From positions 1 through 15,821 of the IMG/VR virus record IMGVR_UViG_2537562194_000030: 15,821 nucleotides of DNA; one strand, given 5' to 3'. Position numbers: made by a program. This document shows, one piece after another, positions 3,001 through 6,000 of the stretch (position 1 is its first letter; every line of letters starts with the position of its first letter). This DNA is from a virus (Duplodnaviria; Heunggongvirae; Uroviricota; Caudoviricetes).

Positions 3001-6000
3001 TCACTGCCGGGGCATCGATGGCGTTATGGGGTTCAGCCCTGGCAGCCGGTGGTTTTTCTGCCACCACGATGCTGTTTTCACTGGGGGCCAGCATGATACT
3101 GGGTGGTGTGGCTCAGATGCTGGCCCCGAAGGCTAAAGTACCGGAGTACAAAAGCACGGATAACGGCAGACAGAACACGTACTTTTCCTCGCTGGATAAC
3201 ATGATTGCACAGGGGAACCCGATGCCGGTGCCTTACGGTGAAATGCTGGTTGGCTCACGGCGAATCTCCCAGGACATCAGTACCCGTGATGAAGGCGGTG
3301 ACGGGAAGGTGGTGGTTATCGGGCGGCAGAGGTAAAAAGAATAAAAAAATCCCGCAGTGACCGAAGGCTGCGGGAACAGAAAATGAAGATTAACCACAGG
3401 GAGTTTTGTTTTTATTGGCCCGAAAAAACTGTAACGCCCGGGAATGATATCTGCCACGGGGGCGTACAGAAAATGTGAAGAAATTCAGAAATTTTATTCC
3501 GTCATGACACAGGCACCCTCCGGGGTGCCTGTTGTTTTCTGGCATAAACAGATTCAGACATCAGACAGGAGAGGGGGACAGAGTGGGTAAAGGGGGCGGC
3601 AAGGGGCACACGCCGGTAGAGGCAAAGGACAATCTTAAGTCCACGCAGATGATGAGCGTGATTGATGCGATTGGTGAGGGACCGATAGAAGGCCCGGTGA
3701 AGGGACTGCAGAGTATCCTGGTGAACAAAACCCCGCTGACGGACACGGACGGTAATCCCGTGATACACGGTGTGACTGCGGTCTGGCGTGCCGGGGAGCA
3801 GGAGCAGACACCACCGGAAGGCTTTGAGTCCTCCGGAGCTGAAACCGGACTGGGCGTGGAAGTGACGAAGGCAAAGCCGGTGACGCGCACCATTACGTCC
3901 GCGAACATTGACCGCCTGCGGGTTACCTTCGGGGTGCAGTCACTGGTGGAGACCACCTCAAAGGGTGACCGTAACCCGGCATCCGTCCGCCTGCTGATTC
4001 AGTTACAGCGTAACGGTAACTGGGTGACAGAAAAGGACGTCACCATTAACGGCAAGACCACCTCACAGTTCCTGGCCTCGGTGATTCTGGATAATCTGCC
4101 TCCCCGGCCCTTTAACATCCGGATGGTCAGGGAGACGGCGGACAGCACCACGGACCAGCTGCAGAATAAGACGCTGTGGTCGTCATACACCGAAATCATC
4201 GATGTGAAACAGTGCTACCCGAACACGGCCATTGTGGGGCTGCAGGTGGATGCGGAGCAGTTCGGCGGCCAGCAGATGACGGTGAACTACCATATCCGCG
4301 GTCGCATCATCCAGGTGCCGTCAAACTATGACCCGGAAAAACGCACGTACAGTGGTATCTGGGACGGCAGTCTGAAACCGGCATACAGCAACAACCCGGC
4401 CTGGTGTCTGTGGGACATGCTGACTCACCCGCGCTACGGCATGGGAAAACGTCTGGGGGCGGCGGATGTGGACAAGTGGGCGCTGTATGCCATCGGGCAG
4501 TACTGCGACCAGACGGTCCCGGATGGTTTCGGGGGGACCGAGCCGCGGATGACCTTTAATGCGTACCTGGCACAACAGCGTAAGGCGTGGGACGTTCTCA
4601 GTGATTTCTGCTCGGCGATGCGCTGTATGCCGGTATGGAACGGCCAGACGCTGACGTTCGTTCAGGACCGCCCGTCGGATGTGGTGTGGCCGTACACCAA
4701 CTGCGATGTGGTGGTGGATGATAACGGCGTGGGGTTTCGCTACAGCTTCAGCGCCCTGAAGGACCGCCACACGGCGGTGGAGGTGAATTACACCGACCCG
4801 CAGAACGGCTGGCAGACCTCCACGGAACTGGTGGAAGACCCGGAAGCCATACTGCGCTACGGGCGCAACCTGCTGAAGATGGATGCGTTCGGTTGCACCA
4901 GTCGCGGTCAGGCCCACCGTGCCGGGCTGTGGGTGATAAAGACCGGACTGCTGGAAACGCAGACGGTGGATTTCACGCTCGGGTCACAGGGGCTGCGTCA
5001 CACACCCGGTGACATTATTGAAATCTGTGATAACGACTATGCCGGGACCATGACCGGCGGACGTATCCTGTCCATCGATGCCGCCAGCCGCACCCTGACA
5101 CTGGACCGTGAGGTGACCCTGCCGGAGACAGGTGCCGCCACGGTGAACCTGATTAACGGCAGCGGTAAGCCGGTGAGCGTGGCCATCACTGCACACCCCG
5201 CGCCGGACCGGATACAGGTCAGCACCCTGCCTGATGGTGTGGAGACATACGGTGTATGGGGACTCTCCCTGCCGTCACTGCGTCGTCGCCTGTTCCGCTG
5301 TGTCTCCATCCGGGAAAACACGGACGGCACCTTTGCCATCACGGCGGTGCAGCACGTACCGGAAAAAGAAGCCATTGTGGATAACGGGGCCAGCTTTGAG
5401 CCACTGTCAGGCACCCTGAACAGCGTCATCCCACCGGCAGTGCAGCACCTGACGGTGGAGGTGAGCGCAGCTGACGGTCAGTATCTGGCGCAGGCGAAAT
5501 GGGACACGCCGAAGGTGGTGAAGGGCGTGAGCTTTATGCTTCGCCTGACCGTGGTCGCGGATGACGGCAGTGAGCGGCTGGTCAGCACGGCCCGGACGAC
5601 GGAAACCACATACCGCTTCACGCAACTGGCGCCGGGGAGCTACAGGCTGACAGTCCGGGCGGTAAATGCGTGGGGGCAGCAGGGCGATCCGGCATCGGTA
5701 TCGTTCCGGATTGCCGCTGCGGTACCCGCCACGATTGAGCTGACGCCGGGCTATTTTCAGATAACAGCGGTCCCGAAACTGGCTGTATATGACCCGACGG
5801 TACAGTTTGAATTCTGGTTTTCGGAGGCAAAAATCGCAGACACATCTCAGGTGGAAACCTCTGCCCGTTATCTGGGGACCGGCAGTCAGTGGAGTGTATC
5901 CGGCCCGCACATTAAGCCCGGGAAGGATTTCTGGTTTTACGTGCGCAGCGTCAACCTGGTGGGGAAATCTGCTTTTGTGGAAGCCAGTGGCCGGGCCAGC

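What the first reader, a model, noticed from the sequence alone, without database searches (positions are those of the whole stretch)
3336..3582. Structured 247 bp non-coding spacer between I and J with oppositely oriented terminator-like hairpins
Lambda has only a short I-J gap (about 60 bp as I recall). Here the gap holds a minus-oriented hairpin with a U-tract (3341-3375) and a strong plus-oriented 10 bp stem with a T-rich tail (3508-3540) just before J, with about 130 bp between them and no convincing ORF. It could be a small RNA locus, the scar of a lost moron, or an attenuator controlling J dosage.
Basis: seen in the sequence. Interest (0 to 1): 0.4.

Follow-up and report, generated by a model that had tools for sequence, protein, structure and literature searches.

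The report
Prophage small-RNA gene between tail genes
The long spacer between tail genes I and J holds an unannotated copy of a known Hfq-binding small RNA gene (PasB of EPEC, EcOnc22-24 of EHEC O157) read antisense to the tail genes, next to a terminator-like hairpin that phage lambda also has in front of J.

Summary
The I-J gap is exactly 3336-3582 (247 nt). It holds a minus-oriented terminator (stem 3350-3357/3368-3375, U7 at 3343-3349) and a plus-oriented 10-bp hairpin (3509-3532) with a U-rich tail.

The left hairpin is the terminator of a known prophage sRNA. A covariance model built from PasB (EPEC E2348/69), EcOnc22 (EHEC Sakai) and 15 other alleles, with the window's allele left out, hits 3343-3437 on the minus strand (64.9 bits, E 2e-11). 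Published northern probes for both RNAs map to this element in the I-J gaps of their prophages. Both RNAs are about 83-85 nt and Hfq-dependent. PasB has 37 RIL-seq partners.

The window carries a divergent allele: 69% identical to PasB and 62% to EcOnc22. It has a good -10 (TATCAT) and a poor -35. Lambda's gap is 60 nt, so a cassette of about 190 nt is the insertion (a moron).

Related prophages carry one to four tandem cassettes at this site, or a sodC gene that keeps only the sRNA body and terminator.

The right hairpin is conserved for plus-strand pairing, and lambda has a hairpin in the same position. Its role as a terminator or insulator, or as an attenuator of J, is inferred.

The sRNA's target and function are unknown. 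No ORF in the gap is conserved.

The parts
3343..3437 (-). Predicted sRNA gene, a PasB / EcOnc22-24 family allele of about 95 nt from the promoter-predicted start. It would be about 80 nt if the 5' end corresponds to the one annotated for PasB.
   Evidence: A covariance model built without this allele matches 3437->3343 over its full length, 64.9 bits, E 1.9e-11. Alignment with 18 other alleles is. PasB and EcOnc22 map to the homologous place.
3343..3375 (-). Rho-independent terminator of the sRNA. Stem 3350-3357/3368-3375 (UCCCGCAG/CUGCGGGA), 10-nt loop, U7 at 3343-3349.
   Evidence: The seven stem pairs that RNAalifold predicts are invariant in all 19 alleles, while the loop varies greatly in sequence and length.
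3385..3393 (-). Conserved single-stranded motif UUAAUCUUC just 5' of the terminator. It is the candidate seed or a proximal Hfq-binding region.
   Evidence: AUCUU is invariant in the 19 alleles. Zhu et al. [quoted passage not shown]
3405..3416 (-). (ARN)4 run AAUAAAAACAAA, a candidate motif for binding the distal face of Hfq.
   Evidence: All 19 alleles keep an (ARN)3-7 run at the same place despite different sequence. In the window, 0.15% of shuffles reach it.
3444..3471 (-). sRNA promoter: -10 TATCAT (3449-3444), 16-nt spacer, weak -35 TTCTGT (3471-3466). Predicted start at G3437.
   Evidence: The homologous position in relatives is TTCACA-16-TATAAT, 11 of 12 matches. The -10 is aligned in all alleles. 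In the window the scan tool's threshold is not reached.
3472..3503 (.). A/T-rich block upstream of the promoter, the most conserved non-coding segment. In some copies it is a dyad, TGTGAATAAA-N9-TTTATTCACA. It may be an UP element or a regulator site.
   Evidence: Mean pairwise identity is 0.94, against 0.63-0.78 for the sRNA body. It is present in the tandem units printed for L179 and L169 and in every non-sodC gap counted, so it belongs to the cassette and not to J.
3509..3542 (+). Plus-strand terminator-like hairpin (10-bp stem, loop UCCG) with tail UGUUUUCUGG, 41 nt upstream of the J start codon.
   Evidence: Across 11 alleles 98% of cells are paired, with one compensatory C:G<->U:A pair. 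Six cells are G:U on the + strand and would be C.A on the minus strand. It occurs only in this context. Lambda has a hairpin in the same position.
3554..3582 (+). J leader: heptamer TCAGACA x2 (3554-3567) and Shine-Dalgarno GGAGAGGGGG (3568-3577), ahead of GTG at 3583.
   Evidence: The repeat number varies between relatives: L080 has 14 nt more of it.

Best explanation
The 247-nt spacer is lambda's short I-J junction enlarged by a cassette of about 190 nt. The cassette is an autonomous small-RNA gene, a moron in the sense used for lambdoid phages, and it is transcribed antisense to the tail operon.

The cassette has four parts. An A/T-rich upstream block lies at 3472-3503. A sigma-70 promoter follows (-10 TATCAT at 3449-3444, weak -35). 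The transcript runs about 80-95 nt, from about 3437 to 3343. A Rho-independent terminator with U7 ends it (3343-3375).

The RNA is an allele of the PasB (EPEC) / EcOnc22-23-24 (EHEC) family. It has a largely unstructured A/U-rich body with an (ARN)n run, a conserved UUAAUCUUC motif and a terminator with a U-tail, which is the anatomy of an Hfq-dependent base-pairing sRNA. By inference from its homologues it is made in the lysogen, is bound and stabilised by Hfq, and pairs in trans with host or prophage mRNAs. Its targets and physiological role are not known.

The second hairpin (3509-3542) is a separate plus-strand element that sits where lambda has its own hairpin in front of J. Most likely it is an intrinsic terminator or insulator that stops transcription not modified by Q from running into J and the genes behind it. 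Q-modified late transcription would pass it.

Shown here: the anatomy, the homology, the synteny and the conservation pattern. Shown in the literature for homologues: expression, size, Hfq dependence and trans partners. Inferred: expression of this allele, its start site, trans action, and the terminator or insulator role of the right hairpin.
For: Homology: model R1, built from PasB, EcOnc22 and 15 other alleles without the window's allele class, hits window 3343-3437 (-) over its full length at 64.9 bits, E 1.9e-11. Nothing else in the window scores.

Identity of the homologues:
- The Tree et al. 2014 northern probe 'EcOnc22/23/24' is complementary to the strand antisense to the tail genes, just 5' of the terminator, in the Sakai Sp15 I-J gap.
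- The three Hfq-CRAC peaks lie in the I-J gaps of Sp15, Sp14 and Sp11.
- The Sakai RNA is about 85 nt and is destabilised in delta-hfq.
- PasB (Pearl Mizrahi et al. 2021, Table S6) is an 83-nt RNA at NC_011601 1466343->1466261. That is the I-J gap of prophage PP6, where I ends at 1466255 and J starts at 1466496. Its probe, AATCCCGCAGTGATCGCGGAGCT, is this family's terminator.
- PasB falls by log2 -6.8 in delta-hfq, has 37 RIL-seq partners, and is the second (sRNA-side) RNA in 99-100% of chimeras. Its DESeq2 mean counts are 482 and 1082, against 4.8 for I and 15 for J.

Anatomy:
- The -10 is aligned in all alleles, and relatives have TTCACA-16-TATAAT.
- Only the terminator helix is conserved as structure.
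- An (ARN)3-7 run is present in all 19 alleles.

Insertion: lambda and lambda-like prophages have a 60-nt gap with no match to the model.

The cassette behaves as a unit: arrays give 3 model hits each in L179 and L169, and L179 has a fourth unit by eye.

Right hairpin:
- The wobble pattern fits plus-strand pairing, with one compensatory pair.
- The T-tail is conserved.
- The 340-nt gap class has an unrelated plus-strand hairpin with a T-tract in the equivalent position.
- Lambda has a counterpart.
Against: - No transcript data exist for this allele. Its -35 is poor (TTCTGT, 7 of 12 overall) and the promoter scan finds nothing in the window. The Sakai allele, which is expressed, has an equally poor -35.
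- The 5' end annotated for PasB lies about 15 nt downstream of the start predicted from the promoter. Either the prediction is off or the RNA is processed.
- The terminator stem never varies, so there is no covariation support for it.
- No target motif has been reported for PasB, and the function is unknown.
- The sRNA body differs strongly between alleles (56-62% identity to PasB and EcOnc22). That fits a cis-antisense role as well as diversification of trans targets.
- For the right hairpin there is no evidence of termination. Its U-tract is interrupted. The shuffle control is only modest, with 45 of 500 shuffles reaching the observed value. The sodC class and distant lambdoid loci have no plus-strand terminator before J.
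Confidence: 0.85

Rival explanations
1. The RNA acts mainly in cis. It is fully complementary to the I-J intercistronic part of the late tail mRNA. It would pair with that mRNA and trigger cleavage or alter J expression. It could act on its own phage or on related co-resident or superinfecting lambdoid phages.
For: The geometry is certain: the gene lies antisense inside the late operon. The body varies freely between alleles while the promoter, Hfq motifs and terminator are kept. That is what a cis-antisense RNA allows, because both strands change together. EHEC genomes hold a median of 4 such spacers.
Against: PasB has 37 trans partners in RIL-seq, 30 of them coding sequences or 5' UTRs. The complementary stretch is non-coding and ends about 130 nt before the J ribosome-binding site. 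A conserved motif (AUCUU) and the ARN run indicate constraint on the sequence itself.
Confidence: 0.2
2. The spacer is a decaying remnant of a lost sodC moron, namely its 3' UTR and terminator, with no function of its own.
For: In the 851-nt gap class a minus-strand Cu,Zn superoxide dismutase gene (Pfam Sod_Cu, E 4e-32) with its own terminator is followed by the same sRNA body and terminator, but without the sRNA promoter.
Against: The non-sodC classes have a promoter of their own at a conserved position, near consensus in many alleles. Homologues are abundant, Hfq-bound RNAs. The cassette is duplicated in tandem. It is far commoner than the sodC form: about 165 loci against 14 among those sampled.
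Confidence: 0.08
3. The right hairpin is an attenuator or an mRNA-processing or stability element. It would set the amount of J (and lom, stf) relative to the upstream tail genes during lytic growth.
For: A stable plus-strand hairpin with a U-rich tail directly upstream of J occurs in three unrelated sequence forms: lambda, the window type and the 340-nt class. The plus strand of the whole spacer folds better than shuffles, z -3.7.
Against: By established knowledge of lambda Q, late transcription is antiterminated and reads through intrinsic terminators. The sodC class and distant relatives lack the hairpin. No quantitative data exist.
Confidence: 0.2
4. The right hairpin terminates a second, plus-strand small RNA that starts in or near the A/T block, divergent from the first.
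For: The two terminators face outward from a shared conserved central block. The 340-nt class has a different plus-strand segment ending in its own hairpin with a T-tract after the same block.
Against: No acceptable plus-strand promoter is present in any allele (and my reading). Tree et al. list no Hfq-CRAC peak on that strand. The EPEC supplementary tables hold no RNA entry named for the E2348C_1436/1437 intergenic region. Inner units of tandem arrays have the block but no such hairpin.
Confidence: 0.05
5. The gap encodes a small protein: +3383-3478 (31 aa) or -3545-3390 (51 aa).
For: Both ORFs exist, and the first has an ATG preceded by a purine-rich stretch.
Against: The ATG of the + ORF is ACG or absent in about half of the alleles. 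The ATG of the minus ORF is ACG in most alleles. Indels break both frames. There is no Pfam match.
Confidence: 0.02

Closest known systems
PasB sRNA of EPEC O127:H6 E2348/69 (Pearl Mizrahi et al. 2021, PMC8550237; Zhu, Shabalina and Storz 2026, bioRxiv 10.64898/2026.05.13.724894)
   Same: It has the same position (I-J gap of a lambdoid prophage, antisense) and the same terminator stem and U7. It shares the AUCUUCAUUU motif before the terminator, the ARN run, the -10 position, the upstream A/T block and the plus-strand hairpin before J.
   Different: Overall identity is only 69%, and 62% in the body. PasB has the near-consensus promoter TTCACA-16-TATAAT, while the window has TTCTGT-16-TATCAT. 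Expression and Hfq dependence are shown for PasB, not for this allele.
EcOnc22 / EcOnc23 / EcOnc24 of EHEC O157:H7 Sakai prophages Sp15, Sp14 and Sp11 (Tree et al. 2014, PMC4104026)
   Same: They have the same locus, orientation and terminator. They are about 85 nt, Hfq-crosslinked and unstable without Hfq. Like the window, they have a weak -35.
   Different: Identity to the window allele is 62.5%. Function is unknown there too. In the papers I read, nobody links EcOnc22-24 to PasB: the homologue note for PasB in Table S6 is empty.
AgvB / AsxR anti-sRNAs (Rfam RF02702, RF02703)
   Same: They are also prophage-borne, short, Hfq-binding, multi-copy and expressed in the lysogen. They also combine a conserved 3' terminator module with a variable 5' part that carries ARN motifs.
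   Different: They have a different sequence and lie elsewhere, downstream of the late promoter PR' near stx and the lysis genes. There is no Rfam match in the window. They are 51-60 nt. A sponge function has not been shown for the I-J sRNA.
Prophage sodC morons (sodC-F1/F2 of O157:H7, D'Orazio et al. 2008, PMC2569942; sodCI of Salmonella Gifsy-2)
   Same: They are cargo expressed in the lysogen and inserted antisense in a lambdoid prophage. In my sample the sodC gene occupies the same I-J gap and is followed by the same sRNA body and terminator.
   Different: They encode a protein. The sRNA promoter, the A/T block and the plus-strand hairpin are replaced by sodC and its promoter.
Hairpin in the 60-nt I-J gap of phage lambda (15463-15482, not annotated)
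   Same: It is a plus-strand GC-rich stem with a 4-nt loop followed by a T-rich run, directly upstream of the J ribosome-binding site.
   Different: The sequence is unrelated. It lies closer to J, and lambda has no sRNA cassette. I know of no described function for it.

Membership tests
PasB / EcOnc22-24 prophage sRNA family | Lies in the intergenic region between tail assembly gene I and tip attachment gene J of a lambdoid prophage, antisense to them | tested here: met
   I and J were identified by Pfam. The element lies on the minus strand at 3343-3437. PasB and EcOnc22-24 have the same layout.
PasB / EcOnc22-24 prophage sRNA family | Sequence and structure homology to the experimentally defined members | tested here: met
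   A covariance model built from 17 alleles, including PasB and EcOnc22 and excluding the window's allele class, gives a full-length match of 64.9 bits, E 1.9e-11.
PasB / EcOnc22-24 prophage sRNA family | Rho-independent terminator with stem CCCGCAG/CUGCGGG and a U tail of at least 6 | tested here: met
   Stem 3350-3357/3368-3375 and U7 at 3343-3349. The seven predicted stem pairs are invariant in 19 alleles.
PasB / EcOnc22-24 prophage sRNA family | Own sigma-70 promoter about 95 nt upstream of the end of the terminator | tested here: inconclusive
   The -10, TATCAT, sits at the aligned position. The -35 is only 2 of 6, and the scan's threshold is not reached in the window. Relatives score 11 of 12.
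PasB / EcOnc22-24 prophage sRNA family | Accumulates as an RNA of about 83-85 nt that binds Hfq and depends on it | not testable with these tools
   This is shown for PasB and EcOnc22 only. The window allele has the sequence features expected: an (ARN)4 run, a U-rich stretch before the terminator, and U7.
Moron (autonomous insertion between genes that are adjacent in related phages) | Absent from related phages at the same junction, and carries its own promoter and terminator | tested here: met
   The gap is 60 nt in lambda and in lambda-like prophages of E. coli, Shigella and E. ruysiae, with no model hit in lambda. For the promoter and terminator see the rows above.
Intrinsic terminator (right hairpin, + strand) | GC-rich stem-loop followed at once by a U-rich tract | tested here: met
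   10-bp stem with 7 G-C pairs, a 4-nt loop and tail UGUUUUCUGG. The scan lists it. z is -5.6. The U-tract is interrupted.
Intrinsic terminator (right hairpin, + strand) | Transcripts end there | not testable with these tools
   No 3'-end data were available to me.
AgvB / AsxR anti-sRNA family (Rfam RF02702, RF02703) | Match to the Rfam models | tested here: not met
   There is no match at the gathering threshold in the window. At E up to 5 the gap gives only a chance-level hit to an unrelated family. As a positive control, the model finds AgvB in Sakai.
Small protein-coding gene | ORF with a conserved start codon and frame in relatives | tested here: not met
   Start codons are lost and frames are broken by indels. 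There is no Pfam match.

The most novel reading that the evidence does not exclude
The I-J junction of EHEC/EPEC lambdoid prophages is a dedicated, fast-evolving small-RNA site. One cassette keeps a fixed promoter-upstream block, Hfq motifs and terminator stem, while its body and terminator loop diversify. The cassette is amplified to as many as four different tandem copies, and it exchanges with a sodC moron.

Under this reading the alleles are not redundant. They would either retarget host mRNAs or act as antisense weapons against the tail-gene mRNA of competing lambdoid phages in poly-lysogens. PasB and EcOnc22-24 would be two sampled alleles of a much larger family that BLAST-based surveys under-count. 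As an illustration, Zhu et al. found PasB in 24 phage genomes, whereas the whole 247-nt spacer matches 147 phage records; the two searches used different queries and releases, so the numbers are not directly comparable.
Probability: 0.15. Interest if true: 0.6.

Novelty: new member of a known kind. Interest (0 to 1): 0.35.

Why it matters
The element is unannotated in RefSeq genomes and absent from Rfam. Yet it is present, often in several copies, in about 15% of complete E. coli genomes, mostly Shiga-toxin and attaching-effacing strains.

Recognising the spacer as a PasB / EcOnc22-24 allele joins two experimental literatures (EPEC RIL-seq and EHEC Hfq-CRAC) that describe the same locus under different names. 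It also shows that the family is much more diverse than close-match searches suggest.

The alignment gives a ready design for experiments. It marks conserved parts (AUCUUC motif, ARN run, A/T block) and free parts (body, terminator loop). Natural one-, two- and four-copy arrays are available, and so is a sodC variant without the promoter.

For the scan itself, the finding is a correct call of a real non-coding gene, not of a new kind of system.

Tried and rejected
- **Zero coordinate shift for the Tree et al. peaks.** Read directly on the current Sakai record, the EcOnc22-24 CRAC peaks fall on the right hairpin. I rejected this. AgvB shows that the paper's coordinates (older record version) are about 140 nt lower than NC_002695.2. 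The northern probe sequence places the RNA next to the left terminator.
- **AgvB/AsxR, HnrS (EcOnc10-12), PasA, PasC and PasD as identities.** All lie elsewhere in the prophages and have different sequences.
- **Rfam.** Nothing at gathering thresholds, and only a chance-level terminator-driven hit at E 0.09.
- **Full-text search for the sRNA sequence.** No paper found.
- **A conserved fold of the sRNA body.** RNAalifold keeps only the terminator, and single-sequence folds of the body are not better than shuffles for the window allele.
- **A long-range helix between UUUUAUUC (3492-3499) and the first J codons.** RNAalifold predicts it. I do not take it as the reason for the conservation of the A/T block, because the block is equally present in inner units of tandem arrays, far from J.
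- **A plus-strand promoter for a second sRNA.** None found.
- **Fur, Zur or CRP sites in the A/T block.** I compared them by eye only. The matches are partial and the spacing is wrong for CRP, so I do not claim any.
- **The right hairpin as a dispersed repeat.** Rejected: all 92 occurrences in 1.45 Mb of fetched loci lie in this one context.
- **Target prediction.** Not attempted, because no genome-wide interaction tool or whole genome was at hand.
- **The list of PasB RIL-seq partners.** It could not be extracted from the stored supplement within the look-up cap.
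Full report
**1. The observation**

The window is the tail and right-arm part of a lambdoid prophage. Gene I (2655-3335, Pfam Lambda_tail_I) is followed by J, which starts with GTG at 3583, ends at 7059 and has six GpJ Pfam domains. The gap is therefore exactly 3336-3582, 247 nt.

- **Left hairpin.** Arms 3350-3357 and 3368-3375 are 8/8 complementary with a 10-nt loop. They are preceded on the + strand by A7 at 3343-3349, which is U7 after the stem on the minus strand.
- **Right hairpin.** Arms 3509-3518 and 3523-3532 are 10/10 complementary with a 4-nt loop, followed by TGTTTTCTGG.
- **Stability.** Both fold far better than dinucleotide shuffles: z -3.7 for the left hairpin on the minus strand and z -5.6 for the right one on the plus strand, with 0 of 200 shuffles as good in each case.

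The ORFs in the gap are 31-51 aa, have no Pfam match and are not conserved (section 4 below). Lambda's I-J gap is indeed 60 nt, 15445-15504.

**2. The spacer is widespread**

It is 95-99% identical in about 90 phage records, nearly all Stx-converting phages. It occurs in 803 of 5426 complete E. coli genomes, with a median of four places per genome that has it. In most rows of both hit lists nothing is annotated under the match, and where something is listed it is only the neighbouring tail assembly gene.

The window itself matches prophages integrated at dusA in O111:H8-type strains. Downstream lie lom, tail-fibre genes, espW, a DUF1076 (NleG-like) gene, espM2, dinI and an integrase. Rfam has no family for anything in the window.

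**3. What the left hairpin is**

*EHEC evidence.* Tree et al. 2014 (PMC4104026) list 63 unannotated Hfq-CRAC peaks in EHEC Sakai. EcOnc22, EcOnc23 and EcOnc24 lie in prophages Sp15, Sp14 and Sp11. They are homologous to each other. The RNA is about 85 nt on a northern and is destabilised without Hfq. In the current Sakai record, the tail genes of these three prophages are on the minus strand. The three peaks, which are on the plus strand, fall inside the three I-J gaps.

The paper used an older record version. AgvB, located with Rfam, shows that its coordinates are about 140 nt lower than today's. That shift moves the peaks from the J-proximal hairpin to the I-proximal terminator.

The northern probe settles the matter. 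The reverse complement of 'EcOnc22/23/24' (GGGAGAGAACGATGAAGATTAACTGATGAGTTA) ends in GTTAATCTTCATCGTTCTCTCCC. That is the Sakai sequence on the strand antisense to the tail genes, directly 5' of the terminator.

*EPEC evidence.* Pearl Mizrahi et al. 2021 (PMC8550237, Table S6) define PasB in EPEC E2348/69.
- It is an 83-nt RNA on the minus strand at 1466343->1466261, between E2348C_1436 and E2348C_1437.
- Those two genes are I (ends 1466255) and J (starts 1466496).
- The PasB probe, AATCCCGCAGTGATCGCGGAGCT, is this family's terminator hairpin.
- PasB drops by log2 -6.8 in delta-hfq and has 37 RIL-seq partners, 30 of them coding sequences or 5' UTRs.
- It is the second RNA in 99-100% of its chimeras.
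- Its DESeq2 mean counts are 482 and 1082, against 4.8 for I and 15 for J.

*Test on the window.* I built a covariance model from PasB, EcOnc22 and 15 further alleles and left out the window's allele class. It matches window 3437->3343 over its full length at 64.9 bits, E 1.9e-11. Nothing else in the window matches, and neither does lambda. The window therefore carries an allele of this family. It is 69% identical to PasB and 62.5% to EcOnc22. Neither paper links PasB with EcOnc22-24: the homologue note for PasB in Table S6 is empty.

**4. Anatomy, from 38 unique spacers with J at least 96% identical (IMG/VR and GTDB)**

Read on the minus strand, the cassette has these parts.
- **Upstream block.** An A/T-rich block at window 3472-3503 has mean pairwise identity 0.94. 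That is as high as the J coding sequence, and it compares with 0.63-0.78 for the sRNA body.
- **Promoter.** The -10 occupies one aligned position in all alleles. It reads TATAAT in several, and TAATAAT, GATAAT or AATAAT in others. In the window it is TATCAT (3449-3444). In PP6-type and other relatives the scan tool reports TTCACA-16-TATAAT, 11 of 12 matches. The window (TTCTGT) and Sakai (TTCCGG) have poor -35 hexamers, yet the Sakai RNA is expressed.
- **Transcript.** The predicted start is at G3437, within the conserved GCGUUA, which gives 95 nt. The 5' end annotated for PasB corresponds to about 15 nt further in. That annotation is an estimate from read coverage and blot size.
- **Body.** It holds a U6 run, a variable stretch, and an (ARN)3-7 run that is kept in all 19 alleles although its sequence differs (window 3416-3405). 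Then come CUCC and the motif UUAAUCUUC (3393-3385, with AUCUU invariant).
- **3' end.** A U-rich stretch is followed by the terminator.

RNAalifold keeps only the terminator helix. All seven predicted pairs are invariant, so there is no covariation, while the loop varies greatly in sequence and length. This is the layout of an Hfq-dependent base-pairing sRNA. Zhu et al. 2026 also place the proposed PasB seed just upstream of the terminator.

The small ORFs fail on conservation. The ATG at 3383 is ACG or missing in about half of the alleles. The ATG at 3545 on the minus strand is ACG in most. Indels break both frames.

**5. The site in evolution**

Among 209 loci with both genes, the gap falls into distinct classes:

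| Gap length | Content | Loci |
|---|---|---|
| 60 nt | lambda and lambda-like prophages of E. coli, Shigella and E. ruysiae (J about 78% identical) | 25 |
| 230-260 nt | one cassette, the window type | about 100 |
| about 340 nt | one cassette, then a different J-proximal segment with its own plus-strand hairpin and T-tract | 63 |
| about 420 nt | two cassettes | 4 |
| about 850 nt | sodC | 14 |
| about 910 nt | four cassettes | 1 |
| about 1590 nt | 340-type spacer with an IS3-family insertion (L156) | 1 |

Single loci also have gaps of about 290 and 1150 nt, which I did not examine.

The model finds three tandem copies in L179 and three in L169. L179 has a fourth unit with a different terminator stem, TCTCCCGT/ACGGGAGA. 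The linkers between units resemble the 3' end of I, so the arrays arose by unequal crossing-over.

In the sodC class, a minus-strand Cu,Zn superoxide dismutase gene (Sod_Cu, E 4e-32) with its own terminator replaces the sRNA promoter, the A/T block and the right hairpin. The sRNA body and terminator remain downstream of it. Prophage sodC-F genes of O157 are known (PMC2569942).

The cassette is thus a moron in the usual sense. It is absent from lambda at the same junction and has its own promoter and terminator. By the data on homologues it is expressed in the lysogen.

**6. The right hairpin**

It belongs to the plus strand. Across 11 alleles, 98% of cells pair. One pair shows a compensatory change (C:G to U:A, with both one-sided intermediates present). 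Six cells are G:U on the plus strand and would be C.A mismatches on the minus strand. The T-rich tail is conserved. The shuffle control is only modest, 45 of 500. All 92 occurrences of the hairpin in 1.45 Mb of fetched loci lie in this one context.

In tandem arrays only the J-proximal unit has it. It therefore goes with J and not with the cassette.

Lambda's 60-nt gap is itself mostly a plus-strand hairpin, AAACCGCC-TGCG-GGCGGTTT, followed by TGTCATTT (unannotated). The 340-nt class has yet another plus-strand hairpin with a T-tract there. The sodC class and two distant lambdoid loci have none.

I conclude that a hairpin of this kind in front of J predates the insertion. I take it to be an intrinsic terminator that halts transcription lacking Q modification. 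A role in setting J level or mRNA stability is the main alternative. Neither has been tested.

I found no plus-strand promoter that would make it the end of a second sRNA. No Hfq-CRAC peak is listed on that strand, and the EPEC supplementary tables hold no RNA entry named for this intergenic region.

**7. Mechanism, with its limits**

- *Shown here:* homology, synteny, the parts list and their conservation.
- *Shown by others for homologues:* size, Hfq binding and dependence, expression in the lysogen far above the flanking tail genes, and many trans partners.
- *Inferred:* that this allele is expressed from the TATCAT promoter, that it starts near 3437, and that it acts in trans through the AUCUUC region with Hfq.
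- *Unknown:* targets and physiological role.

The RNA is also perfectly antisense to the late I-J mRNA, so a cis effect cannot be excluded. The free variation of the body fits either view.

**8. Verdict**

The finding is a real non-coding gene that was correctly noticed, and it belongs to a known family. What is new is modest.
- This allele has not been studied.
- PasB and EcOnc22-24 are the same locus.
- The family has many alleles, forms tandem arrays and is related to a sodC moron at the same site.
- Lambda has a counterpart of the second hairpin.

Noticed in passing
L179 318-1230; L169 4418-4980: Related prophages carry tandem arrays of the sRNA cassette between I and J. L179 has four units of about 225 nt and L169 has at least three. 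The units have different bodies. One unit has a different terminator stem, TCTCCCGT/ACGGGAGA. The linkers resemble the 3' end of I.
   Followed up: partly
L114 350-1200 (also L067, L009): In the 851-nt gap class a minus-strand sodC gene (Cu,Zn superoxide dismutase) with its own terminator sits between I and J. It is followed by the sRNA body and terminator, but the sRNA promoter is missing.
   Followed up: partly
L121 about 1000-1200; L156 4700-6160: The 340-nt gap class replaces the right hairpin with an unrelated segment. That segment has a strong plus-strand hairpin (CCCCGGTATC/GATACCGGGG followed by TTTCTCTTT) and a second hairpin (AGCATG..CATGCT followed by TTTTC). In L156 an IS3-family element is inserted in this segment.
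   Followed up: no
L250 764-783 (lambda 15463-15482): Lambda's own I-J gap is mostly a plus-strand hairpin with a T-rich tail just before the J ribosome-binding site. It is not annotated in NC_001416, and the simple terminator scan does not list it.
   Followed up: partly
window 3472-3503: The A/T block upstream of the sRNA promoter is the best conserved non-coding stretch. In some copies it is a perfect dyad, TGTGAATAAA-N9-TTTATTCACA. It could be a regulator site or an UP element. It shows partial resemblance to Fur and Zur boxes by eye only.
   Followed up: partly
window 3554-3567: The heptamer TCAGACA is repeated twice just before the J Shine-Dalgarno sequence. The same repeat is 14 nt longer in L080, so the copy number varies.
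   Followed up: no
L001-L005 (Sakai NC_002695.2): The coordinates in Table S2 of Tree et al. 2014 are about 137-146 nt lower than in the current Sakai record around 1.9-2.9 Mb. Read without this correction, they point to the wrong hairpin.
   Followed up: yes
window 9850-15445: The right arm of the prophage carries espW, a DUF1076 (NleG-like) gene, espM2 and a dinI-like gene. An integrase lies directly next to dusA, so the prophage ends at dusA.
   Followed up: partly
L006, L012-L034 and others (genome-contig scan): Many hits in genomes labelled Streptomyces, Neobacillus, Shewanella, Pseudomonas and others look like lambda or E. coli prophage DNA: several are low-coverage contigs of about 48.5 kb. 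They are probably contamination of those assemblies.
   Followed up: no
window 12097-12171 (-): The sRNA model gives a weak second match here (14.4 bits, E 0.3) that lacks the terminator helix. I take it as chance.
   Followed up: no
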